DNA of 24,088 nt from IMG/VR virus record IMGVR_UViG_3300011339_000654, positions 1 to 24,088 of that record; one strand, written 5' to 3'. The stretch comes from a virus. Its lineage: Duplodnaviria; Caudoviricetes. The notes below the pieces were generated by a model. It made no database searches. It was not told the DNA's origin and worked only from the letters and a program-made list of their open reading frames with translations. A program made the position numbers and the translations under genes. The stretch's first letter is position 1. Every line of letters starts with the position of its first letter. This document shows, piece after piece, positions 1,490 through 23,552 of the stretch.

Positions 1490-1518
1490 GCCATCAAAAA
1501 TGGCCTGATTTGGGGCCT

Positions 1519-1585
1519 CAAGTGGTTCCCGCAAGTGGTTCCGCAAGTGGTTCCCCTTTAAGTATATAAATATGGGAACCACTTG
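1519..1585. repeat. Iteron-like repeats: three direct CAAGTGGTTCC(C) plus one inverted copy across an AT-rich spacer (putative replication origin)
   Basis: Direct copies at 1519-1530, 1532-1542 and 1544-1555; spacer CTTTAAGTATATAAATAT at 1556-1573; inverted copy GGGAACCACTTG at 1574-1585. Origin role is inferred from its position after the helicase. Confidence 0.8.
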
Positions 1586-1704
1586 TAAAAACCCCCCTTA
1601 TAAATCCCCCCGTGTAGGCGGCCTACGGCACCGCCACTACGCTCCGCCTACGGCGGGGTTGGCAGTTAGACAGTTAAGCATATTGGCGTTAAGAATGTTT
1701 GGAA

Positions 1705-1760
1705 TGCGGTGGTCCTGGTACCCGCTCCCTTCGGGTCGCGGAGTACCGAGACCACACGCA
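1705..1760. other. Long imperfect hairpin with C-TTCG-G loop
   Basis: Paired arms TGCG/CGCA, GTGGTC/GACCAC, GGTAC/GTACC, CCGC/GCGG and CC-TTCG-GG in intergenic DNA. Confidence 0.7.
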
Positions 1761-1808
1761 GGATGGACAGCTGGGAGACATCACATGATAGTGTCCAAAA
1801 ATTCACTA

Positions 1809-1838
1809 TTGCGCGGCCATGCGCGATTGTGTTATAAC
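1809..1838 (+). promoter_or_regulatory. Putative sigma70-type promoter
   Basis: TTGCGC (1809-1814), 18 bp spacer, extended -10 TGtTATAAC (1830-1838); upstream of SD AAGGAG and ATG 1881. Confidence 0.55.
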
Positions 1839-2573: not shown

Positions 2574-3146
2574 ATGGAAGAACAAGCAAAGTGGGACGAT
2601 GGCCCCGTAAGTTTTGGCGTCAAGCCAGTGACTGAGTACACGTTTCAGGAGCTGCGCGTGGCATTTGGCGTGTTTGCGCAGAAGGTTGAGCAACTTGAGC
2701 TCAAGCAGGCAATGTTTGAGCAAGTAGCACAACAGGTTTATGGCGCATTGAAGGCGAGAGTAGACAAACTTGATGGAACCGGCGCCGATGGCAACGATGA
2801 TGACCTCGACCTTATGAGTATCTCGGAGTTGACTACCTGGGCGAAAGCAATGTCTACCAAAGTTGCTGAGTTAGACCTGATGGGTGATTTGGGGAACGCT
2901 GCAGCCACAAAGGGTATTGATGCACTGAGGCAAGACGTAGACAGTCACACGCAACTGATTGAGCGGTTGCAATCGCCAACTGATGAGGACCTCGCGAAGC
3001 TGGCCGAAGCGGTATTGTCGGTGCCGCTCGATAAGTTTGCGTACAAGGGTTATGAGGCCGGTATCTTTGGCAAGGTGCACGACATCGAGTCGCAAGTGAT
3101 GGCACAAGCAGAGGACATCGAGGAGGCGCGAGCAGATGGCGAATAA
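2574..3146 (+). CDS. Hypothetical acidic coiled-coil protein
   Basis: SD AGGAGGT at 2563-2569 favours ATG 2574; helical, heptad-like composition. Confidence 0.75.
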   Translation: MEEQAKWDDGPVSFGVKPVTEYTFQELRVAFGVFAQKVEQLELKQAMFEQVAQQVYGALKARVDKLDGTGADGNDDDLDLMSISELTTWAKAMSTKVAELDLMGDLGNAAATKGIDALRQDVDSHTQLIERLQSPTDEDLAKLAEAVLSVPLDKFAYKGYEAGIFGKVHDIESQVMAQAEDIEEARADGE

Positions 3147-3378
3147 CTTCACGAGTGCCAAGCCTCGGCGTGGTTCGGAGTTTGGCGAGATCTACCGCAC
3201 TCTCACTGAGGGTCGCGGTATTCGTCGTATGGCATGGCCTCCGCGTGCAGCGGTGCGTCTCGATGGCGAACTGCTGATGATTGTCATCGATGGCAAGCCG
3301 CGACAGCGCTGGTATCCGCATCCGGGAGACATCCTGGACAAGGGCACACCAGTGCGCGATTGGGAGGTGGTCGAATGA
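3136..3378 (+). CDS. DUF2829 / Thoeris anti-defence Tad2-like small protein
   Basis: FGE-x4-L-xx-G-xx-I-RR-xx-W ... W-x-P-xxx-DIL ... DWEVVE follows the Tad2/DUF2829 pattern (FGEAL..LK.G..V.R.GW ... W.PSQ.D.LA.DW.IV); GAGGAGG upstream. Confidence 0.65.
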   Translation: MANNFTSAKPRRGSEFGEIYRTLTEGRGIRRMAWPPRAAVRLDGELLMIVIDGKPRQRWYPHPGDILDKGTPVRDWEVVE

Positions 3379-4169
3379 TTGGCGCATATGGCATCGGCAC
3401 TATCAGCCGTTCAAACGTTGTGACATCACCAGGGAGCGGAAAGCGTGAATCTTTCACACGCGAGCGCATCGAGGAGATTGTCCGAGGAGTCGCAAAGCAT
3501 GTCAACGATGGCATGACGGTTGCTCAAGCTAGCCGGATAGTCTTCGGTGATGGTCGTAATTTCTACTATGTCCTGAGCAAGAGCGAGGAGCACAAGCGCC
3601 TGTATTATCGGCTGGTCAATGGTCGCGGTAATCCAGGACAACGGACACTCACGCAGAGCGAGCGCATCGAGCGGCTAAAGACCTACTGGGACCTCCGCGA
3701 CGCAGCTGTAACAAAAGCAGACGCTGAAAAGCAGGCGAGGGTTTGGAGTAGTGACATCCCAAATTGGCTCAAAGATGACACGATCAACTCCTACTGGGTT
3801 GAGCGCGAAGCGCAACACCTCGCAATAAAAGAGCGCATCAACGGCATCCGCCGAGAGAAAAAGGCCGCATCATTCGCGAAGACAATCGCGGAGAAAAAGC
3901 AAGCCTCGATGCAAGACACAGCTGCGAGCACTGCATCATCCATCAAAATCATCAAGCCCACTGGTGTACAGGATGGCTCGATTGCATCGGTGTTGCCTGC
4001 GCTCCGTGCCGGCAAGGCGATACGGCGGAGCGACTCATACACTTGCTATGCGATGTGTGAGGGGCGCATGATTGAGTACAAGGTCATCCTCGGACGTCGT
4101 CAGCATGTGGGGCTTGCGTACATCATCGGTGCAGATCTGCTGGCGACTGACTGGGAGGTGATGGCATGA
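3375..4169 (+). CDS. Putative HTH-containing protein with C-terminal degenerate DUF2829/Tad2-like domain
   Basis: ATGA overlap at 3375 with SD GGAGGTG. C-terminus VLPALRAGKAIRR...ADLLATDWEV; two HTH-like helical segments in the N-terminal half. Confidence 0.6.
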   Translation: MIGAYGIGTISRSNVVTSPGSGKRESFTRERIEEIVRGVAKHVNDGMTVAQASRIVFGDGRNFYYVLSKSEEHKRLYYRLVNGRGNPGQRTLTQSERIERLKTYWDLRDAAVTKADAEKQARVWSSDIPNWLKDDTINSYWVEREAQHLAIKERINGIRREKKAASFAKTIAEKKQASMQDTAASTASSIKIIKPTGVQDGSIASVLPALRAGKAIRRSDSYTCYAMCEGRMIEYKVILGRRQHVGLAYIIGADLLATDWEVMA

Positions 4170-4534
4170 CATTTGAGAGCATCATCGTTCAGCACTGGAT
4201 GGCAGATTTCGTCAATCAGTCACGTGAGATTGCGGTCGCAAAGTCCAGCGACAACATCGCACTCCTACGGCATGTGTTGTATTACTCGCTGCACTTTGTT
4301 CTAGTCGCATCGGTGTACAGCCTGATTGACGACGCGCATAGCTGGGATGTGTTTCGGTATATGGGATTTATCGGCATCAATGCGATGCTGCACCTCGTGG
4401 TCGACTACTTCACCAGTCGGGCATCAACCAAAGCGTACAAGGCTGATGACATCAAGCGGTTTTGGAACATCATCGGGTTTGACCAGATGCTCCACACGCT
4501 TTGCCTCTATGTGACATGGAAGGCTTTCTCATGA
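4166..4534 (+). CDS. DUF3307-like membrane protein
   Basis: HWMADFVNQ, LLRHV, LHLVVDY and IGFDQMLH motifs with hydrophobic helices; ATGA overlap. Confidence 0.8.
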   Translation: MTFESIIVQHWMADFVNQSREIAVAKSSDNIALLRHVLYYSLHFVLVASVYSLIDDAHSWDVFRYMGFIGINAMLHLVVDYFTSRASTKAYKADDIKRFWNIIGFDQMLHTLCLYVTWKAFS

Positions 4535-4852: not shown

Positions 4853-5395
4853 ATGATGTTTGCAGCAATGCCTACCCCTCGTAGGCCTAGGCTAGAACCA
4901 CGGACCATCTACAAGTTCGCGCCGCGCCGCGTACCGACGGATTGCCTTATCCTGGGACATGTTGGTCCTGTCAGGGAGTGCATCAACTTCGCGATGCAAA
5001 CAAAGGTCGACTACGGGGAAGTTCGGCGTGAGACGCTCGGATTCTCAGCAAGTCCAAAGTTTTGGATAGATTTCCATAAGGGAGTTACCGATGTGGTTTT
5101 CGACCCAGCGCAATGCGCGTTGTTTGGGCATCACATCGATATTGTCGACGAGGATGTAGATGTGTGCTGGATCAAAGTCCACATTGCATCCGATCCGACA
5201 CCGTATCCCGACCGGTCGGATTTGATGACGCATCTATTTGCCGCATTCGAGGCACTGACAAAGGCATCGCAAACCATTGACGAGATGCAACATGCAGATG
5301 TGCTCGAGGGCATCGACAGGCATTTTGTCAAGACCGCACAAAAGCAGCTCGGCCACATGCTACACCTCGACATGATGGACCAAGGAGGCACGTGA
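4853..5395 (+). CDS. Hypothetical protein
   Basis: ATG 1 nt after TAA 4851, GGAG upstream; no recognisable motif. Confidence 0.7.
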   Translation: MMFAAMPTPRRPRLEPRTIYKFAPRRVPTDCLILGHVGPVRECINFAMQTKVDYGEVRRETLGFSASPKFWIDFHKGVTDVVFDPAQCALFGHHIDIVDEDVDVCWIKVHIASDPTPYPDRSDLMTHLFAAFEALTKASQTIDEMQHADVLEGIDRHFVKTAQKQLGHMLHLDMMDQGGT

Positions 5396-5652
5396 TGAAG
5401 GGTAAGAATGGCGCGGATGAATACTCCGCACGCCTGGGCGCCGTCATTCGGCGTATGCGGGTACGGACCGGATTGTCACAGGAGATGTTCGCCTGTACTC
5501 ATAACATCAACCGTACGTATATGACTGACATTGAGCTCGGGCGTAGGAATATCACGATTGCCATGGGGCAACGCATCGCGGACGGCCTTGGCATGACGCT
5601 TGTGCAGCTGCTCTCGATGGCGGATGCAATGGAGGTGCAGGATGGGATTTGA
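5392..5652 (+). CDS. XRE-family helix-turn-helix transcriptional regulator
   Basis: LGAVIRRMR...GLSQEMFA...INRTYMTDIELGRRNIT...IADGLG; SD AGGAGG (start GTG 5392 or ATG 5395). Confidence 0.92.
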   Translation: MMKGKNGADEYSARLGAVIRRMRVRTGLSQEMFACTHNINRTYMTDIELGRRNITIAMGQRIADGLGMTLVQLLSMADAMEVQDGI

Positions 5653-6091
5653 AACAATCGTCGGCAAGACAGCCGACAAGGTAGATGCACATCGACACAT
5701 GGTGATGGACTGTATCAGCCTTGGTATGGCGTTTAAGACAGACGACGTCATGCCTAATGCGTGGTTGCCAATCACTGGGCATGGCGTGACGTACGCCATG
5801 TCGTACGGTTGCAAGGTTCGCAAAATGCAATGGACCGATGGATGCTTTGTCGAGATGGTCAACGTCGATGAAGACGACACCGAATCTGAGCGCGTGATGC
5901 GTGCGACGGGCACGGATGTGTTCAAACACGATTGCCAAGCGTTCGGGAGTTTTGTCCTGGAGCAACTTATCGACACACTACACCTCGGCTCGTGGCAAGT
6001 TATGCTCACTCCCTCACAGTACATCCGGTGGACTGTAGTATGGAGAGAGTGGCGCAAGCAAATCACTGAGATGGACGGTGAAAAGTGCTGA
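5642..6091 (+). CDS. Hypothetical protein
   Basis: SD GGAGGTG at 5631-5637 before ATG 5642; overlaps the XRE stop. Confidence 0.7.
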   Translation: MGFETIVGKTADKVDAHRHMVMDCISLGMAFKTDDVMPNAWLPITGHGVTYAMSYGCKVRKMQWTDGCFVEMVNVDEDDTESERVMRATGTDVFKHDCQAFGSFVLEQLIDTLHLGSWQVMLTPSQYIRWTVVWREWRKQITEMDGEKC

Positions 6092-8272: not shown

Positions 8273-8290
8273 GTCATAATGTGAGCATGG
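8273..8290 (+). promoter_or_regulatory. Putative -10 element 6 nt before the portal start (leaderless-type)
   Basis: GTCATAATGTGAGCATGG, 15/18 identical to 14532-14549; TG extension present. Confidence 0.5.
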
Positions 8291-10191
8291 CCAAGTTATC
8301 GATATTCGACCGCATCCGCTCGTTTGGCACCAAGGCAGTGACACCGGCACCGCTTGATACCGCGCTCCCTGGACCATCGCAGACGCGTCAGAGTACATGG
8401 GGCACTGGTTATGGGGACGGACAGTATCGGTCACTACTGACAGTCCGTCTACCGGAGAGCAACCGCAATTGGCGTGACATTGCTGGTGACCTCATGCTCA
8501 ACAGCGTGGTCGCGATCGGCATCGATTGGTATGTTCGCAATTTCCCACAGGGACAACTCCGCGTGATGCGTCCGACAGCTGATGGGCAAGCGGAGCCAGT
8601 GCCGGACCATCCAATCCTCGCGCTCCTGCGTGACCCTGACCCGTACAGCCAAGCAGTGCCTGGTGAGCTCTGGGACAACATGATTGCCGAGTACCGGGTG
8701 CAAGGCCTGACGTACTTGGTCAAGCGCCGCAATCCGTCGAATGGCATCCCTGGCGCGCTGCAGTCAATCCCGCCTGACATGATTGCGCCGCAAACAGACA
8801 AGGACGGGCGCATTATCAGTTATCGCTACACGGCGTCTGGATGGTCTCGCGATCTGCCGGTCGATGATGTGATTCGCGTCAAGTATGGGCGCGACCCGGA
8901 CGACTGGAAGCTCGGGCGCTCACCATTGACGTCGGTGCTCGCAGAGATTGCCGCTGACAACATGGCGTCGCGCATGGGCTACGGGCTCGCATCGTCCCCG
9001 GTTCCGAGCTTCATCGTTGGGCCACCTGATGGCGACGCGGTGATGATTCAGCCAGAGGACGCGCAGGTGACAAAGAGCGCGCTACAGCAGAACTTCCGCG
9101 GTGACCGCTCCGGCGGTGTTGTTGTCATGCAACAGCCGTATAAGATTGAGCGCGTCGCATGGTCGCCTAAAGACATGGCGCTCGATGACATCAGGCGCAA
9201 GCCAGAGGAGCGCATCTGTGCGGCACTAGGGCTTAACCCACTGGTGCTCCAGTTGGGTTCTGGGCTTGAGCGTGCGACATACTCCAACCTTGACCAGGCG
9301 ACGCGATCTGCGTGGACTGATGGCATGATTCCGCTCTATGCCGCTTTCGCCCGTTCACTCACCGCACAGCTGCTCCCGGACTTCCCGGAGACGCAACCGG
9401 GCGATTATCTCGAGTGGGATACAAGCAACATCCCTGCGCTACAAAGCGACCTTAACGAGGATTCCGAGAGAGCGGAGCGACTGTACAAGGCTGGCATCAT
9501 CGACCAAGCAACCGCGAAGCGCATCAGTGGCATTACGCCTGGAGCAGAGGACGAGGGGCGATACTTCCCAAGTGCTCAACCTGCGCCGATTATTGACATG
9601 TCATCGATGCCGACTGGACAACCAGTGCGCACACCGCAAGAGATTGCCGCACTCGTGACAAGCGCAGGCACGCTTATTCGCTCAGGATTCGCACCAGAGG
9701 CAGCACTCGCAGCTGTCGGCCTCGACCCGATACAGCACCTTGGCTTGCTACCGGTCACGGTCCAGACAGAATCGAAGGCATTGCAACTCGAACCAGGAGA
9801 AGAGCAGGGCCTCAAGTATTACCCGACCGACTCAATGCGGAATGCGGCAAAGCGCGCACTCGCATGGCGTGAGGCCGGCAACAAGGGCGGGACGCTGGTC
9901 GGTTTACGTCGCGCAAATCAACTGGTGAACGGGGACAAGTTGTCGGAAGACACCATCCTCCGGATGCACTCGTTTTTCAGCAGGCACGAAGTCGACAAGC
10001 AAGCCGAAGGTTTTCATTCAGGTGAGCCGGGATTCCCGAGTCCTGGTCGCGTGGCGTGGGACCTCTGGGGCGGTGACAGCGGGCAGAGTTGGGCGCGCAA
10101 CCTTGCACGCAAGATTGTAGACCAAGCAGACGAGACTAAGAGCGCGACACACCCCGTATATGGATGGGAGCTCGATGCCGACACTCTATGA
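8287..10191 (+). CDS. Portal protein (HK97-like) with C-terminal extra domains
   Basis: Follows terL; GRSPL, SPKDM, EERICAALGLNP, ATYSN motifs; about 200-aa extension beyond the portal core. Confidence 0.92.
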   Translation: MAKLSIFDRIRSFGTKAVTPAPLDTALPGPSQTRQSTWGTGYGDGQYRSLLTVRLPESNRNWRDIAGDLMLNSVVAIGIDWYVRNFPQGQLRVMRPTADGQAEPVPDHPILALLRDPDPYSQAVPGELWDNMIAEYRVQGLTYLVKRRNPSNGIPGALQSIPPDMIAPQTDKDGRIISYRYTASGWSRDLPVDDVIRVKYGRDPDDWKLGRSPLTSVLAEIAADNMASRMGYGLASSPVPSFIVGPPDGDAVMIQPEDAQVTKSALQQNFRGDRSGGVVVMQQPYKIERVAWSPKDMALDDIRRKPEERICAALGLNPLVLQLGSGLERATYSNLDQATRSAWTDGMIPLYAAFARSLTAQLLPDFPETQPGDYLEWDTSNIPALQSDLNEDSERAERLYKAGIIDQATAKRISGITPGAEDEGRYFPSAQPAPIIDMSSMPTGQPVRTPQEIAALVTSAGTLIRSGFAPEAALAAVGLDPIQHLGLLPVTVQTESKALQLEPGEEQGLKYYPTDSMRNAAKRALAWREAGNKGGTLVGLRRANQLVNGDKLSEDTILRMHSFFSRHEVDKQAEGFHSGEPGFPSPGRVAWDLWGGDSGQSWARNLARKIVDQADETKSATHPVYGWELDADTL

Positions 10192-15114: not shown

Positions 15115-15338
15115 ATATCCAAAACTTTCGTATGGAGCCAAATCCTGCCGTCCCCGGCGATTGGATTATTTTTGGCGATATTTACGATAATGAAGGCAAC
15201 CTGCTCGGCACATACGGCCCTGATGGAACTTCAGTATTTACGTGGTGGAATCAACAGGATGCAGGATTTCAACAGAATTACGCTCAACTTTTTAGCACTG
15301 TAATGGCTCAAGAAATCGTAAATGGGACGGCTGAATAA
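15111..15338 (+). CDS. Hypothetical protein
   Basis: ATGA overlap upstream and TAATG coupling to the fibre gene. Confidence 0.75.
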   Translation: MNIQNFRMEPNPAVPGDWIIFGDIYDNEGNLLGTYGPDGTSVFTWWNQQDAGFQQNYAQLFSTVMAQEIVNGTAE

Positions 15339-17506
15339 TGGCTACAGCATACGTGTCATCATCTGGAACGGCGGCTTATCCCGGTACGGCATCGGTTCCA
15401 ACATCAATCACTTTAGCACTGTCATCTGCTGGTGCTGGTGACATCATCTATATTGCACCGGGCAACTACGTAGTCAATAACGTTACGTACGGTGGTGCAT
15501 CCGGAACGGCTGGAAACCCTGTACAGTTTATTGGTAATCCTACCGGCTCACAATTTATAGGTATTCCCGCTGGTCGCATTCTATTTACTGCGACAAGTGA
15601 CCTATCAACCGGGACGGGAGCGCAAGTCTTAACGCTGACATCTAAGAGTTATGTAAACTTTAGCAACATTACATTTGACCGAATTTCAGCAATTAGTAAT
15701 GTATTTACACTGACAACTTGTGCAAATGTAATTATTTCAAATTGCGTATTTTACGGTGCTGTTATAGTTACAAACACAGCCGCTGTTCCCAATAATAATA
15801 CTTTTACAAAATGTGTATTATATGGCACACGTATTCTTAACCTGTACTTTGGTCTACATACATCAAACTATGACAACCCATTTGTGATTAGTGACTGTTT
15901 ATTTATCATGATAAACAGTGGAGGATTTGGAAGAGCATTAGAGTTCTATAATACTGGTTCAGGTGCTGGTTTCCCGGGTGGAGGGTTAATCACGAACTGT
16001 ACTTTATTTGGTGGTGACGTTGGAATAAACCACTTCAACACTTCATATGACACGACAAATCCATTTCTTATTAGAAATAACTTGTTTATGTGTGCTACGG
16101 CAATCTTTTGCAGTTTAGCGGCAAGAGTATCGGCTTCATATAATCGGTATACATTTAGTGCTCTGTCAGGCGCATCATCTGGGACTGGTAGTACTTCTAA
16201 CGGTGTCGCTGGTGTCGATTTGTTTGAGTCACTTTTGTACGCAATCAATAACCTACAACCATTTGCAACGTATCTAAGTAGTCCAAATACAAACTTTGGT
16301 ACATCCACTGGCGCACCTGCTACAGACTTGTATGGCGTAACGTGGACAGGTACAAACCCTGACGCTGGCTCCGCAACCTACAGGAGTCTTTCTACTGTTG
16401 GCTCTTATTTACCAACCGAGCGCAACGCATCAGCCATCACAATCGCTCCCGGCTCAACATCACAGTCCATCGAACTATATCTAGGTGCTACAGGTCTCAC
16501 AGCCTCAACCACTGGTCTCTCAGCTCGCTACAACAGAACACGAACAGCCTCTGTCAGCATCCCTCTGGTAGCCCGTACAATCGCACAGGCGTGGACTTCA
16601 GGTGGCTTTGCGGAGGTTGACGCTACCAATATGCCGGGGGTCTATCGCGTCGATATTCCGGATGCAGCTCTAGCGGTTGGAGCTGATGATGTTACGCTTG
16701 TAGTCCGCGGTGCATCTGGTACTAACGGTGCGGTAATGACAATTAAACTGTCCTCTGGTGGCTTGACATCTGCACAAACGGCCTCGGCTGTCTGGGGTGC
16801 AAGCCCAGCAGGCTACAACGACGCTACGACCTTTGGTGGTGTTGTCAATCAGATTGACCAGACGGTTACAGGCACGAGTGTGCTGGTGCAGGACGTGCCA
16901 TCTAATGTCTGGCAAGAGCAGACAGACGATCACACGACGCACGGAACATTCGGCTACAACATCCTCCGCGCTGATGCTCCAAGTAAGGAGGGGTTGGTTA
17001 CACTCCATCAATCGGGCGGTATCTCCCGCGTCGATGCCGACATTCACGCCATTGTAAATGACACGCTGGCAGCTGCTGAACTGAAGGGTGCACTATTGCA
17101 TACTGGCGGAGACTACATCAGCGCAGATCTGCTGACTCCGGTCACGAGCGCGCAGACGGTCCGCATCGGCCCATTCGCCGTACGTACGGATGCCGGCGGT
17201 GCTGATGGCGCGCTGGATCTCAACCAGTCAACTGCCGGCGCTGTCGTTGTGCAGCTGACAGACGCGCAAGGGACGGGCATTGATCAGACATCCGCTACCG
17301 TCCAGGCTAAGGTGTACAACGTCGCAGGAGGGCTAGTGGCAACCTATACATGTACGCCGGCTTATGCTGTCAATGGTTTTGTGTCCATTCCGATGACAAC
17401 CGCGGTGACTGGCACGGCGGGGTCATACATCATCAATCTCTGGAGCACCGTCGGAGCGACGGTCATCATCTACGGCCCGCTACAGCTGCGGGTGAGGGCT
17501 ATCTAA
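15338..17506 (+). CDS. Fibre/spike protein with N-terminal pectin-lyase-like beta-helix
   Basis: AGDIIYIAPGNY start motif; repeated rungs ISNCVF, FTKCVL, ISDCLF, ITNCTL, IRNNLF; G/S/T-rich; Ig/BppU-like C-terminal domain. Confidence 0.75.
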   Translation: MATAYVSSSGTAAYPGTASVPTSITLALSSAGAGDIIYIAPGNYVVNNVTYGGASGTAGNPVQFIGNPTGSQFIGIPAGRILFTATSDLSTGTGAQVLTLTSKSYVNFSNITFDRISAISNVFTLTTCANVIISNCVFYGAVIVTNTAAVPNNNTFTKCVLYGTRILNLYFGLHTSNYDNPFVISDCLFIMINSGGFGRALEFYNTGSGAGFPGGGLITNCTLFGGDVGINHFNTSYDTTNPFLIRNNLFMCATAIFCSLAARVSASYNRYTFSALSGASSGTGSTSNGVAGVDLFESLLYAINNLQPFATYLSSPNTNFGTSTGAPATDLYGVTWTGTNPDAGSATYRSLSTVGSYLPTERNASAITIAPGSTSQSIELYLGATGLTASTTGLSARYNRTRTASVSIPLVARTIAQAWTSGGFAEVDATNMPGVYRVDIPDAALAVGADDVTLVVRGASGTNGAVMTIKLSSGGLTSAQTASAVWGASPAGYNDATTFGGVVNQIDQTVTGTSVLVQDVPSNVWQEQTDDHTTHGTFGYNILRADAPSKEGLVTLHQSGGISRVDADIHAIVNDTLAAAELKGALLHTGGDYISADLLTPVTSAQTVRIGPFAVRTDAGGADGALDLNQSTAGAVVVQLTDAQGTGIDQTSATVQAKVYNVAGGLVATYTCTPAYAVNGFVSIPMTTAVTGTAGSYIINLWSTVGATVIIYGPLQLRVRAI

Positions 17507-19771: not shown

Positions 19772-21300
19772 TGGCACTTGGACTGTTTGAAATCATCTTT
19801 AAGGCGTCCGGCGCAAACAAAGTCCAGTCCGACATTAAGGCGATCAAGGACGAAGCCGGAAGCGCGGCACCTGCCGTTGAGCAGCTCGCTGGCACAATGT
19901 CCAAACTTGGCAGGATAGGTGCTACACTCGGCGCACTTGGTGGCATCGTGGCATTTGGCAAGTCCGCCCTCGAGGCCAGCGGAGACGCCCAGGAACTCAA
20001 CACGCGACTGGAAGGTGTAACCGGGTCGGCTGCCGAAGCGGCTAAGGTTATGGCCAAGGTACGCGAGGTTGCAGGTCCGTCGCCATTCACTACGAAGCAG
20101 CTCGCGAACGCAGCTGTCGGTTTGCAAGCGATGGGCATCAATGCCCAGAAAGCACTCCCGAAACTCGCGGATCTCGGCGCCGCATTTGGCGCGGATGAAG
20201 AGCACCTAAAGTCGCTTGTCGGCATGATGGGGAAACTCAATCAAGGCATCATGCCAGACTCCGAAACGCTCTCGATGTTCGGCCTGTCTAAAAAGGACTT
20301 TGCTGGAGAGGGAATCACGTTCGACAAAAACGGCACGCTGATTTCAAGTGCGACCGAGACGCTCGATGCGCTATTCCGGATCATCGACAAAAAGTACGGT
20401 GGCATGACCGAGCGGATGGCGAAGAACACCAAGTCGCAGATGGCGACCATCGTTGACTCGTTTACTCAGATGATGGAAAAGGTCGGAAACATTTTCGGTG
20501 CTGGGCTAAGTCTGATAACACCTGCTCTCACAAGTGGGCTCGACAGCGTGACGAAGTTTTTCGACTCCGTGTCGACGAATGGCAGCACTGCGCAAAACAT
20601 CCTCAAGGGGATTGCGGCAACCCTTGCACTCATCACGGCTGTACAGGTTGTCGATGGCATCATCATGCTCAGTAAGGTGATGAAGGGGCTAGCAAACACG
20701 CTGAAACTGGTCGCGGCTGGTGAGGCACTCATTCAGGCGCTTGCCGGTCCCGCTGGTATTGCGAAGGTCGTCGCCGGAGTTGCCGCTGCAGGGCTTGCCA
20801 TCTGGGGAATGGATGCAATTTTCAACCAGATGGAGCAATCGGCAAAGACAAAACCCGAAGGACTAAAGCCTCCGACAACGACGACACCATCGAATCCGGT
20901 TACAGGAGCGACAGGCGGAACGCCAGCAGCAGGGAGCGGGCACGGTGGCTTGATTGGTACCATGGCGCGCGTTGGCATCGGCATGTCCAAGGTCGGCGAG
21001 TTTCGCGAAGAGTGGGGCAAGACCGTTGCTGAGTCCCTGGACAAGATTGCCAAGAACACTGGCACGACAAACGACCTGCTCGACCTACGTCGGCAGACAT
21101 TCGGCGGTGGTGCACTGGGTCGGCTTGGTGCAACGGCTGTTGAGATGCGCGAGGCTAACGGTGGCGGAGGTATTGCAGCTGGGACCGGACGCATCCCGAA
21201 TACGCTCATCCCGTACAACATCGATCTCGAGCGAGGCGTCAAGAAGATATTTGCGGCAGAGTATCGGACACAAGCTGTTAACCTGATGAGGCGCATCTAA
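19771..21300 (+). CDS. Tape measure protein
   Basis: Ala/Gly-rich helical protein; GSA.EA...M...RE.A..SPF...L..A...L.A.G tape-measure motif; hydrophobic segments; SD GAGGAG. Confidence 0.9.
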   Translation: MALGLFEIIFKASGANKVQSDIKAIKDEAGSAAPAVEQLAGTMSKLGRIGATLGALGGIVAFGKSALEASGDAQELNTRLEGVTGSAAEAAKVMAKVREVAGPSPFTTKQLANAAVGLQAMGINAQKALPKLADLGAAFGADEEHLKSLVGMMGKLNQGIMPDSETLSMFGLSKKDFAGEGITFDKNGTLISSATETLDALFRIIDKKYGGMTERMAKNTKSQMATIVDSFTQMMEKVGNIFGAGLSLITPALTSGLDSVTKFFDSVSTNGSTAQNILKGIAATLALITAVQVVDGIIMLSKVMKGLANTLKLVAAGEALIQALAGPAGIAKVVAGVAAAGLAIWGMDAIFNQMEQSAKTKPEGLKPPTTTTPSNPVTGATGGTPAAGSGHGGLIGTMARVGIGMSKVGEFREEWGKTVAESLDKIAKNTGTTNDLLDLRRQTFGGGALGRLGATAVEMREANGGGGIAAGTGRIPNTLIPYNIDLERGVKKIFAAEYRTQAVNLMRRI

Positions 21301-23552
21301 TGGCTATCAAGTGGCCTATCAAGGTCGAGGTCGATTGTCCGGAACCAAGGCCGGCAAAGTCACGGCTCGTCATCGGCGCGGATGGTACGTCATGGGACCG
21401 CGCGACATCGAGCGAGTACGCATGGTTTGACAGCGTGACAGGGTCGGCAATGCTCTTGCCGATGTGTTTCGATGGCGCGTACGACACGACATTCTCGGGC
21501 ATATACAGCCGACTGCAGCTGTCGGACATGGAGACACCATTCGGTGGTACATGGCGTCAGTACCAGGTGCGAGGCGCCGGTGACTACTGGTGCAGCCAAG
21601 AGGACACCACGACGGCGTACAGCATCCGCACAGCGACATCGTGGAGCGCGAATCAAGGGTGGTGCCTTGGTATGTACCACGGCAACATCCCAACCAAGGC
21701 AAAGCGCATGGTGCTTGCGGTGGCATTTGCGCCAACCGCCACCATGAGCATGAGCCCACTCTACCTGCGATTCTTCACAGACGGGTCATTGCAGATATTC
21801 AAGGACGGTGTACTCAAGGGACAGTACGACCAAGAGGACAGCAACAAGACCGCCGGGCGGCTGGTCAATGGACTCACGCCGATGGGCAACCAGTACCACA
21901 GCGTGGTCATCATTCCGCACAAGCGTCGCGAACTGCTCGTGCTCACGAGCTGGGGATTGAACATATCGCACTTGTTCGAGGATTTGAGCCAGGACAGTAC
22001 GACAAACGTCATTATCCCTGCGGGCAAGTTGCAGGTACAGGATGCGGTGTCGCGTCAGTTCCTCCAGTTCTCGCCGATTCGGTTCGTCAGTTCCGCCGCC
22101 ATCTACAGCAAGCCTATCAAGCTGCGATACGCTCCTCCGACTGGTGCGGTTTTCACCGCTCGTGTGATTCAGGACCGCGTCGGGCGTGCGACGGGTGGAA
22201 GCTCGGTCACCGCATCCGTTGTCAAGGCTGACCTAACGGCATACACGCCAGATGGTGTCATCGATACAGTGCGGCTCAAAGTCCAGATGACATCGTCAGA
22301 CAACATCGAGGCGCCGGGGATTGCACTCGGTGAGGCGTGGTATCAGCCTGCACAAGCTACAACGGCAGATGACCCGGTCGACATCACGGGCTTGTATGAG
22401 TCTCTGTCAATCAGCGTCGACGAGACATCGAGGGCAACGCTCAGCATGACGGCGCGTCGTCAACGGCTACTCGATGCTGGAGTACAACAACCGCAGATTA
22501 CAAGCGACCGACCCATTCGGATTGCCGTCGGAAGTTCTGGCGCGTCACCGACATACATCGACATATTCCGCGGATCTCTCACACCTCCGCAGATTCATTA
22601 CGAGCGCCGCTGGACGCAGTCGCATGACGTCCTGCAGTTTGACGGGCAGGACCGGACACGCGATCTCGAGCTCACGATGTATCAGGATGGCATCGTCTAC
22701 GATGGTATGACCATGCAGTCGGCGGTGTCTGACATGATTCAGACCGCAGGATTCCTATCAACGGACCTGATCTGGGATGATACATCCGGATTCACACTCC
22801 CACGGAGCGCGGATATCGCGCGCGGATATTCGACCGTCGTCCCGCAGCGGGGCGAGTATGTGGCTACGCTTCTCTCCAAGATCAAGAACGATTATGCTGC
22901 GACATGGATTACCGGATGGAGTCCAACCACGACGGGCTACAAGTACCAGTGGAGTAATCCGAGCGACCTAAGCAGTACGCCTGTGATGACGCTCTACAAC
23001 TCACGCCAGGACGCAATCACGGCTGGCGTATCGGGCGACCTTGTACCGCACCGTGTCATCTATAAGATGAGTGCACACTATGAGTCGCCCGAGGCGAATC
23101 AAATCATCGTACTCGGGCAGGACCCGCGGAACGGTGACCTGATCTACAGTTATGCAGCCGATGGTGCAAGCGCGGACCCGACAACCGCTCCGGCATCGAG
23201 GCCGTACAACTGGCGTGGGCGCACCGTGTCCTACATCCTGAGCGAGCCAGCCATCACCAGTGATGCAGCTGCAGTGCAGGCGAAGAATGTCGTATCAACC
23301 CGCCTAATGACCGGGCGTATCCTGCTCGAGTTTACGAGCGATTTGCTCATTGACGATGCCACCAACCGCCCGCTCTGGCTACGTGACGTAGTGCAAATCA
23401 TGATGCCTGGCGGAGCAACCATCCGCGGAATCTATCGAATCATCGCGATACCGAGCATCGATCTCGGATTCGAGCCGACAAGCGCAGGCGACAAGCGCGC
23501 AATCCGCACTGCGACGTATCGGTGCTTGTACCTTGGTAGTGGTGGCGACTAG
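21300..23552 (+). CDS. Tail tip/hub structural protein
   Basis: 750 aa beta-rich protein directly after the tape measure; hub-like C-terminal pattern (ANQIIVLG...LWLRDVVQI...YRIIAI). Confidence 0.6.
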   Translation: MAIKWPIKVEVDCPEPRPAKSRLVIGADGTSWDRATSSEYAWFDSVTGSAMLLPMCFDGAYDTTFSGIYSRLQLSDMETPFGGTWRQYQVRGAGDYWCSQEDTTTAYSIRTATSWSANQGWCLGMYHGNIPTKAKRMVLAVAFAPTATMSMSPLYLRFFTDGSLQIFKDGVLKGQYDQEDSNKTAGRLVNGLTPMGNQYHSVVIIPHKRRELLVLTSWGLNISHLFEDLSQDSTTNVIIPAGKLQVQDAVSRQFLQFSPIRFVSSAAIYSKPIKLRYAPPTGAVFTARVIQDRVGRATGGSSVTASVVKADLTAYTPDGVIDTVRLKVQMTSSDNIEAPGIALGEAWYQPAQATTADDPVDITGLYESLSISVDETSRATLSMTARRQRLLDAGVQQPQITSDRPIRIAVGSSGASPTYIDIFRGSLTPPQIHYERRWTQSHDVLQFDGQDRTRDLELTMYQDGIVYDGMTMQSAVSDMIQTAGFLSTDLIWDDTSGFTLPRSADIARGYSTVVPQRGEYVATLLSKIKNDYAATWITGWSPTTTGYKYQWSNPSDLSSTPVMTLYNSRQDAITAGVSGDLVPHRVIYKMSAHYESPEANQIIVLGQDPRNGDLIYSYAADGASADPTTAPASRPYNWRGRTVSYILSEPAITSDAAAVQAKNVVSTRLMTGRILLEFTSDLLIDDATNRPLWLRDVVQIMMPGGATIRGIYRIIAIPSIDLGFEPTSAGDKRAIRTATYRCLYLGSGGD

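What the first reader, a model, noticed from the sequence alone, without database searches (positions are those of the whole stretch)
3136..4169. Tad2/DUF2829-like sponge coupled to an HTH-Tad2-like fusion: possible immune-signal sensing module
Seen: an 80-aa ORF carries the full DUF2829-like pattern. The coupled next ORF ends in a degenerate copy (ALRAGKAIRR...DLLATDWEV, lacking the first two Trp). That copy is preceded by two similar HTH-like segments (TRERIEEI...GMTVAQASRIV...FYYVL and QSERIERL...AVTKADAEKQA...IPNWL) and a charged helical linker. Known: SPO1 Tad2 is an oligomeric sponge for Thoeris gcADPR, and homologues also bind cyclic dinucleotides. Inference: the phage may both sequester a host alarm nucleotide and read it through a DNA-binding fusion, or the two products may co-assemble into a ligand-controlled regulator. 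I do not know of a described system with this layout.
Basis: partly seen in the sequence, partly recalled or inferred. Interest (0 to 1): 0.78.

Follow-up and report, generated by a model that had tools for sequence, protein, structure and literature searches.

The report
Phage regulator built on sponge fold
A family of uncultured phages keeps a gene that joins a likely DNA-binding helix-turn-helix to a domain predicted to have the fold of the Tad2 immune-signal sponge but lacking most of its known signal-binding residues, beside a changing set of stand-alone Tad2-like genes, so it likely acts as a regulator of that gene cluster rather than as a classic sponge, and any sensing of host alarm molecules is untested.

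Summary
The observation mostly holds. ORF A (3136-3378) is Tad2-like. ORF B starts at 3375; its last 65 residues model as a Tad2 fold (Z 9.0, rmsd about 2 A to HgmTad2 and ModTad2). Its second N-terminal segment is an HTH; the first probably is.

The domain is not a decaying copy of ORF A (dN/dS 0.07; separate lineage). A one-HTH version occurs in 62 contigs of the same phage family, and 61 of them also carry 1-5 variable stand-alone Tad2-like genes. A third paralogue lies at 5642-6091.

Against sensing: none of 34 fused domains keeps W25 or W73 of the gcADPR pocket, and the insertion that binds cyclic dinucleotides is missing. ORF A keeps W25, W73 and D79 but loses N26 and T78; two similar short homologues were inactive in a published screen.

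Best reading (0.45): a conserved DNA-binding regulator that uses the Tad2 fold to oligomerise, beside a variable counter-defence-like array. Ligand control by either route is about 0.27. Co-assembly could not be modelled. No paper describing the fusion was found, but this scan noted similar fusions on other DNA.

The parts
3136..3378 (+). ORF A, stand-alone Tad2-like protein, 80 aa; keeps W34, W59, D65 (SPO1 W25, W73, D79); P35 and G64 replace N26 and T78
   Evidence: dN/dS 0.146 against L001; not folded here
3375..4169 (+). ORF B, 264 aa: probable HTH + HTH + long helix + Tad2-fold domain; start overlaps the ORF A stop (ATGA)
3459..3617 (+). ORF B segment 1 (residues 29-81), probable HTH
   Evidence: four helices at pLDDT 65-80; hhalign E 0.002 to the sister HTH; 5 of 38 sister HTHs above background; no Pfam or PHROG hit for the window copy
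3654..3779 (+). ORF B segment 2 (residues 94-135), HTH of the HTH_23/homeodomain-like kind
   Evidence: A117 and W131 invariant in 20 of 20 aligned sequences; sister copies pass the HTH_23 cut-off in 5 of 11; 35 of 38 sister HTHs above background with a long-form-only profile; 10 of 10 PDB profile hits are HTH proteins, E 0.05-0.35
3777..3929 (+). long charged helix (residues 135-185), least conserved part
   Evidence: 28 of 53 identical, dN/dS 0.23 for residues 146-198
3972..4166 (+). Tad2-fold domain (residues 200-264), minimal core without the beta2-beta3 insertion; keeps D254 (SPO1 D79), lacks W25, N26, W73, T78
5642..6091 (+). ORF C, third and more diverged Tad2-like paralogue; directly follows ORF B in L010 and L011
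   Evidence: E 0.0055 with a profile built without window-family sequences; L010 orthologue PF11195 E 0.059
1809..1837 (+). candidate promoter before the ssb-like gene (1881) that probably heads the operon; TTGCG-n5-ATGCG and TGTTATAA are conserved in 3 of 3 long-form loci
   Evidence: function inferred; a terminator-like hairpin at 2533-2554 lies between it and ORF A

Best explanation
ORF B likely acts as a DNA-binding regulator of the phage's own middle gene cluster, in which a domain predicted to have the Tad2 fold but lacking most known pocket residues likely serves to oligomerise the helix-turn-helix domains, while ORF A and ORF C belong to a changing set of stand-alone Tad2-like genes that are likely counter-defence proteins for signals not yet identified. 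Shown: the fold of the modelled domain, the second HTH by homology, purifying selection, family-wide conservation and fixed position of the fusion, turnover of the stand-alone copies, and loss of pocket residues. Inferred: oligomerisation through the alpha1 interface, DNA binding, the target (the promoter before the ssb-like gene), repression as in Aca or AcrIIA15-type control, and any sponge activity of ORF A.
For: The fusion behaves like a core gene. It occurs once in each of 62 sister contigs and lies between the ssb-like gene and terS in 37 of 38 loci that hold both markers. The fused domains form one group in the tree (support 93/75, not starred). The Tad2-fold domain is more conserved than the HTH: 84% against 58% mean identity over 703 pairs of 38 sequences, dN/dS 0.066. 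That fits a fixed structural partner better than a sponge chasing host signals. W25 is present in 0 of 34 and W73 in 0 of 34 fused domains; W21A/N22A markedly reduced gcADPR binding in HgmTad2 (10.1101/2023.11.15.567273, passages). The model has no alpha2 or insertion, whereas cyclic-dinucleotide binding needs a 35-41 residue insertion. The stand-alone copies fall into 25 clusters at 50% identity, and 94 of 98 keep W25. An operator-like palindrome overlaps the sister operon's promoter in 11 of 17 distinct spacers, against a shuffle mean of 0.39. HTH-fused anti-defence proteins that repress their own promoter are known (AcrIIA15, PMC10901769, abstract).
Against: No operator can be assigned to the fusion. 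The palindrome type does not track the fusion's recognition helix, and a complete sister genome encodes an XRE repressor-like ORF and a sigma-70-like factor that could act on these promoters; the window has its own XRE gene at 5392. D79 is kept in 33 of 33 fused domains with a DW motif, and R217, R218, A248 and D254 are invariant in 16 of 16 aligned fused domains, which a pure scaffold need not keep. MoTad2 binds cUMP and cCMP at a second site that does not use the canonical pocket (10.1101/2025.08.24.671296). Loss of alpha2 removes one of the two known Tad2 interfaces, so the oligomer is itself unproven. The sister HTH also resembles terminase small subunits weakly. One tested Tad2 homologue with Trp-Pro in place of Trp-Asn (#72) did inhibit type I Thoeris.
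Confidence: 0.45

Rival explanations
1. ORF B is itself a signal-sensing regulator: its remodelled Tad2-fold domain binds a host nucleotide other than gcADPR in its canonical pose, and binding changes what the HTH does on DNA.
For: Near-invariant domain across 38 sequences; D79 kept in 33 of 33; a basic hairpin tip in the window protein and the one-HTH forms (GRRQH, GNRRY); Tad2 homologues bind many ligands at two sites.
Against: W25, N26, W73, T78 and the insertion are all absent. A long helix and a low-confidence stretch separate the domain from the HTH in the long form, and linker length differs by about 50 residues between forms, which is hard for allostery.
Confidence: 0.15
2. The fusion and the stand-alone copies co-assemble into mixed oligomers. 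The variable copies supply the tryptophan half of an inter-subunit pocket and act as swappable sensor or anti-repressor subunits for the constant DNA-binding subunit.
For: Tad2 pockets form between protomers. Retention is complementary: stand-alone 94 of 98 with W25, fused 0 of 34. 61 of 62 sister contigs carry at least one stand-alone copy nearby. A and B are translationally coupled in 3 of 3 long-form loci.
Against: Only 13 of 62 sister loci have a stand-alone copy adjacent to the fusion, and no stand-alone lineage is universal (25 clusters). Further Tad2-like genes sit in a separate upstream operon, so co-occurrence may only reflect family-wide expansion. A near-invariant interface is hard to square with partners this diverse.
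Confidence: 0.12
3. ORF B has two independent jobs, like AcrIIA15: the HTH represses the operon and the Tad2-fold domain sequesters an unknown host signal, with no coupling between them.
For: Precedent for HTH-fused anti-defence proteins and for Tad2 working inside fusions (Acb4-Tad2 blocks Thoeris and CBASS; 10.1101/2025.07.12.664507).
Against: Pocket loss. Sponges need high copy number, and the fused domain does not diversify as the stand-alone copies do.
Confidence: 0.13
4. The fusion is not a transcription factor but a DNA-binding helper in replication, late-gene activation or packaging, and the Tad2 fold is a general small-barrel assembly module in these phages, with no link to immunity.
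For: Fixed position between replication and packaging genes; weak hits of the sister HTH to terminase small subunits and of the long form to a transposase family (E 2e-4); the fold also matches a chain of the phage 812 neck (Z 5.8, rmsd 3.0, 73 aligned) and Sm proteins weakly. Two short Trp-Pro homologues like ORF A were inactive in 7 of 7 systems.
Against: A separate terS is present. The matches to Tad2 stand 3 Z units above all others. Rapid turnover of the stand-alone copies is typical of conflict genes.
Confidence: 0.15

Closest known systems
Tad2 sponges, PF11195 (formerly DUF2829): SPO1 Tad2 (8SME/8SMF/8SMG, 8WJE), HgmTad2/AcrIIA7 (8KBI), ModTad2 (9EIB, 8V3E)
   Same: Fold of the ORF B domain (Z 9.0, rmsd 1.9-2.0 A over 61-62 residues); N-terminal helix, G-x-x-I-R-R strand, D-x-L-A-x-D-W end; ORF A keeps W25, W73, D79.
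   Different: ORF B is fused to HTH domains and lacks W25, N26, W73, T78, alpha2 and the insertion. ORF A lacks N26, T78 and the insertion. Both score below Pfam's cut-off. There are several paralogues per genome.
Sponge-sponge fusions Acb4-Tad2 and Tad2-Sequestin (10.1101/2025.07.12.664507, passages)
   Same: Tad2 domain inside a larger polypeptide.
   Different: The partner here is a DNA-binding-type domain, not a second sponge, and the Tad2 pocket is remodelled.
HTH-fused anti-CRISPRs that repress their own promoter (AcrIIA15; PMC10901769, abstract) and Aca repressors (search listing)
   Same: N-terminal HTH joined to a domain from an anti-defence family, inside a cluster of variable small genes.
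   Different: No CRISPR link. AcrIIA15 dimerises through its HTH domain and keeps an active inhibitor domain; here the anti-defence-derived domain is the predicted oligomerisation part. No operator is assigned.
Csa3 (CARF-HTH) cyclic-oligoadenylate-responsive regulators of hosts (recalled; no call)
   Different: Host-encoded, unrelated fold, and ligand binding is shown there but not here.

Membership tests
Tad2 sponge (PF11195) | Score above Pfam's curated cut-off (25 bits) | tested here: not met
   ORF A 14.7 bits; ORF B domain 18.8 bits; the L010 orthologue of A reaches 22.1
Tad2 sponge (PF11195) | Tad2 fold (alpha1, beta1-5, alpha3) in the ORF B domain | tested here: met
   model at mean pLDDT 82.9; Foldseek top 10 rows all Tad2; Z 9.0 to 8kbi and 9eib
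Tad2 sponge (PF11195) | Tad2 fold in ORF A | tested here: inconclusive
   not folded (both jobs went to ORF B); sequence and language-model evidence agree
Tad2 sponge (PF11195) | gcADPR pocket W25, N26, W73, T78, D79 in ORF B | tested here: not met
   1 of 5 kept (D254); 0 of 34 fused domains have W25 or W73 (residues)
Tad2 sponge (PF11195) | gcADPR pocket in ORF A | tested here: inconclusive
   3 of 5 kept; of 3 tested Trp-Pro homologues, 1 was active and 2 were not
Tad2 sponge (PF11195) | Long insertion after beta2 (cyclic-dinucleotide pocket; alpha2 dimer interface) | tested here: not met
   two-residue turn in the ORF B model against 35-41 residues in HgmTad2-like binders; ORF A is equally short by alignment
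Tad2 sponge (PF11195) | Homotetramer that sequesters a signal and blocks defence | not testable with these tools
   needs biochemistry; the complex predictor was not available
HTH regulator of an anti-defence operon (Aca / AcrIIA15 type) | HTH domain, segment 2 | tested here: met
HTH regulator of an anti-defence operon (Aca / AcrIIA15 type) | HTH domain, segment 1 | tested here: inconclusive
   hhalign E 0.002; 5 of 38 above background; transposase-family hit spanning both segments in 2 of 3 distant homologues
HTH regulator of an anti-defence operon (Aca / AcrIIA15 type) | Operator at the operon's promoter that belongs to this protein | tested here: inconclusive
   palindrome in 11 of 17 sister spacers, but no covariation with the recognition helix, and an XRE alternative exists
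HTH regulator of an anti-defence operon (Aca / AcrIIA15 type) | Neighbouring genes shown to block host defence | not testable with these tools
   no tested protein among the neighbours

The most novel reading that the evidence does not exclude
These phages carry a modular receptor for host immune second messengers: one constant HTH-Tad2-fold subunit that binds DNA, and a fast-changing set of stand-alone Tad2-fold subunits that complete its inter-subunit pocket. The phage would then both soak up an alarm signal and retune its own transcription to the defence system it meets. The 25 stand-alone lineages would be a catalogue of undiscovered bacterial immune signals.
Probability: 0.12. Interest if true: 0.88.

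Novelty: new variant of a known kind. Interest (0 to 1): 0.56.

Why it matters
Known Tad2 proteins are stand-alone sponges or are fused to other sponges. Here the fold is joined to an HTH, fixed as a core gene across a phage family and flanked by up to five variable paralogues. At the least this shows that Tad2-like annotations cannot be read as anti-Thoeris activity and that the fold was reused for regulation. If ligand or partner control holds, it would be a phage reading host immune signalling to set its own gene expression. The 137-aa one-HTH form is a small, direct test object.

Tried and rejected
Single-sequence PDB searches found no Tad2 for either ORF. No HTH protein is among the top 50 structural rows for either model, because the long helix fills the lists; this is no evidence against an HTH. 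P0011 and P0012 (E 2e-4) were rejected as repeat proteins. L003-L007 are 9-residue chance matches. Single long-form sequences score barely above shuffles against the sister HTH profile; only profile-level tests separate them. The complex predictor was not available, so neither co-assembly nor homo-oligomers were modelled. Host not found: two scans of bacterial and archaeal genomes gave no relative, and the capsid protein has only partial matches below 35% identity. Annotated phages hold no close relative of either ORF. Covariation of promoter palindrome and recognition helix was sought and not found. A recent tandem duplication of ORF A as the origin of the ORF B domain was rejected. Expression data were not examined.

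Full report
Setting. The window is an uncultured tailed-phage record of 24,088 bases, estimated 81% complete. The gene order is primase-helicase, a gene I call ssb-like from position and composition (no family hit), small genes, HNH, terS-like, terL, portal, head and tail genes. The host is unknown. The finding lies among the small genes between replication and packaging.

The two ORFs. ORF A is 3136-3378 (80 aa). ORF B starts at 3375, overlapping the ORF A stop, and has 264 aa; five homologues start at the same Met. Both hit PF11195 below cut-off. For ORF A, 26 of 30 language-model hits are Tad2-like clusters, and a 5-sequence profile ranks SPO1 Tad2 first of 11 PDB hits at E 0.42. For the ORF B domain, 3 of 4 PDB profile hits are Tad2 (E about 1). 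A model of ORF B residues 90-264 from 20 sequences reached mean pLDDT 82.9. Its residues 200-264 match Tad2 in the top 10 Foldseek rows among 350,542 chains (best E 0.012) and give Z 9.0 to HgmTad2 (rmsd 2.0, 62 aligned) and ModTad2 (rmsd 1.9, 61 aligned), with the next row at 6.1. The fold of that domain is settled as far as prediction allows. ORF A was not folded.

Relatives of the long form. The pair is kept, with the same overlap, in L001 (74% identity for B) and L010 (33%), that is in 3 of 3 loci where the upstream DNA is visible; L011 begins inside ORF B. A search of 1.84 billion representatives found only one distant full-length relative, so the two-HTH form is rare. All parts are under purifying selection; the Tad2-fold domain is 62 of 66 identical to L001 with dN/dS 0.066. 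It is not a decaying copy. It does not group with ORF A, and the two profiles align only weakly (probability 9.8%). A third paralogue, ORF C (5642-6091), was found with a profile built without window-family sequences (E 0.0055 over 3,561 frames) and directly follows ORF B in L010 and L011.

A sister form with one HTH. Profile scans found a 136-138 aa protein in 62 contigs (one locus counted per contig), giving 38 distinct full-length sequences. Many contigs are near-identical, so these are not independent events; four are cut by contig ends and one is frameshifted. Its C-terminal domain aligns with that of ORF B at probability 97.7%, E 2e-12. Its N-terminus passes the HTH_23 cut-off in 5 of 11 representatives and hits an HTH family at E below 0.01 in 10 of 11. 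These phages share portal (41-51% identity, 41 of 62 loci), ssb-like and primase-helicase genes with the window, and the fusion lies between the ssb-like gene and terS in 37 of 38 loci holding both. The fused domains of both forms make one group in a tree of 52 rows (93/75, below the starred level). The fusion is therefore most likely an inherited core gene of this family.

The HTH claim. Segment 2 (residues 94-135) aligns without gaps to the sister HTH (E 1.5e-4), with A117 and W131 invariant in 20 of 20 sequences. A profile from long-form sequences alone ranks 35 of 38 sister HTHs above the 99th percentile of 4,620 background fragments; two control segments rank 0 of 38. All 10 PDB hits of the joint profile are HTH proteins by name (homeodomains and Cro; the tenth, CG11849, I recall as an HTH), at weak E-values. 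Segment 1 is less sure: E 0.002, 5 of 38, with a transposase-family hit spanning both segments in 2 of 3 distant homologues. The two segments are not significantly alike (E 0.18). Structural searches showed no HTH because the long helix filled the lists.

The pocket. SPO1 Tad2 binds gcADPR with W25, N26, W73, T78 and D79 in a pocket between protomers, and one of its two interfaces uses alpha2 (10.1101/2023.05.01.538930, passages). HgmTad2 binds cyclic dinucleotides through a 35-41 residue insertion, and W21A/N22A reduces gcADPR binding (10.1101/2023.11.15.567273, passages). ORF B keeps only D79 (my mapping, anchored on the RR and DW motifs). Among distinct fused domains, 0 of 34 have W25, 0 of 34 W73, and 33 of 33 with a DW motif have D79; the one-HTH form has a Trp two residues downstream of W25 that the long form lacks. 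The model has no alpha2 and a two-residue turn after beta2. ORF A keeps W25, W73 and D79, with Pro for N26 and Gly for T78. In the screen table of PMC12393519 (supplement media-2; 15 homologue rows seen, numbers 74 and 77 not returned), three homologues have Trp-Pro. The two short ones (#69, #80) showed no activity in any of 7 systems; #72, which has a long insertion, was validated against type I Thoeris. ORF A resembles the short ones. Against over-reading this, MoTad2 binds cUMP at a second site independent of the canonical pocket (text parts 2-3 of 7).

The variable array. Within the fetched flanks, 61 of 62 sister contigs carry 1-5 stand-alone Tad2-like genes (iterated profile, E below 0.01); 13 have one adjacent to the fusion, and 91 distinct sequences fall into 25 clusters at 50% identity. 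Of 98 distinct stand-alone domains, 94 keep W25 and none has W25-N26; of 88 with a DW motif, 61 have D79 (that positional rule misses ORF A-type insertions). Five whole records hold 2-6 Pfam matches each. The fused domain is the constant element (84% mean identity against 58% for its HTH), and the stand-alone copies turn over. I had no proper background rate for Tad2-like genes in unrelated phages, so co-occurrence alone does not show interaction.

Possible targets. Sister loci have a sigma-70-type promoter before the ssb-like gene in 35 of 36 cases. Of 17 distinct spacers, 11 hold a 6+3+6 palindrome with at least 5 matches (shuffle mean 0.39, maximum 4 in 2,000; related sequences). Two palindrome registers occur, and they do not track the fusion's recognition helix. 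A complete sister genome also encodes an XRE repressor-like ORF and a sigma-70-like factor. In the long form, TTGCG-n5-ATGCG is conserved at the matching promoter in 3 of 3 loci; a direct repeat would suit tandem HTHs, but this is only a lead.

Mechanism. The simplest account is a regulator whose Tad2-fold domain holds HTH domains together, controlling a cluster that includes variable Tad2-like genes, much as HTH proteins control anti-CRISPR operons (AcrIIA15, PMC10901769, abstract). I give this 0.45. Direct sensing (0.15) and co-assembly with swappable partners (0.12) remain open because D79 and several arginines are invariant and pocket residues are kept in a complementary way. The complex predictor was not available, so no oligomer was modelled.

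Novelty. Tad2 fusions to Acb4 and Sequestin are published (10.1101/2025.07.12.664507, passages). Searches for Tad2 with 'fused', 'helix-turn-helix', 'DUF2829', 'HTH/transcriptional regulator' and 'paralog/heterotetramer' (listings only, except where passages are cited) showed no HTH-Tad2 fusion. A 2026 review mentions none in the passages read (PMC13712596). Four motifs of this family are absent from the published homologue tables, where a control motif was found (media-1). Supplements of bioRxiv preprints were closed and most subscription papers are not searched, so a listing elsewhere is possible. Earlier notes of this scan report HTH-Tad2-like fusions and arrays in other genomes; none matched the sister sequence. 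Verdict: a real, selected, apparently undescribed variant of a known fold, with the sensing idea unproven. Interest 0.56.

Noticed in passing
window 1513-1770: Non-coding stretch nearly invariant in window, L001 and L010, with three direct CAAGTGGTTC repeats and one inverted copy around an AT-rich core, just after the primase-helicase; likely a replication origin.
   Followed up: partly
L020, L022-L024, L059-L094, upstream of the ssb-like gene: Sigma-70-type promoter with an operator-like palindrome in two registers, with compensatory changes between variants; the binding protein is unknown.
   Followed up: partly
L058:3-1602 and L054:321-1669: Six and five Tad2-like genes back to back, starting with the fusion.
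   Followed up: partly
L097:1152-1647 (G001) and L096:2487-2702 (G004): More Tad2-like genes next to a phage sigma-70-like gene, away from the fusion; the 72-aa one passes Pfam's cut-off.
   Followed up: no
model of window 3972-4166: The Tad2-fold domain also matches a chain of the phage 812 neck (8qkh_S, Z 5.8, rmsd 3.0, 73 aligned) and, weakly, Sm proteins; the fold may have structural uses in virions.
   Followed up: no
window 4166-4534: DUF3307 membrane protein coupled to ORF B; absent from L001 and L010 and present in 5 of 62 sister loci, so a mobile accessory gene.
   Followed up: partly
window 8281-10191: Portal protein with an extra C-terminal domain (residues 514-611, phrog_2859, unknown function).
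   Followed up: no
window 15338-17506 and 21300-23552: Two large ORFs (722 and 750 aa) in the structural region with no PHROG match.
   Followed up: no
L037:996-1416: The sister fusion is frameshifted within the Tad2-fold domain; an assembly error or a broken copy.
   Followed up: no
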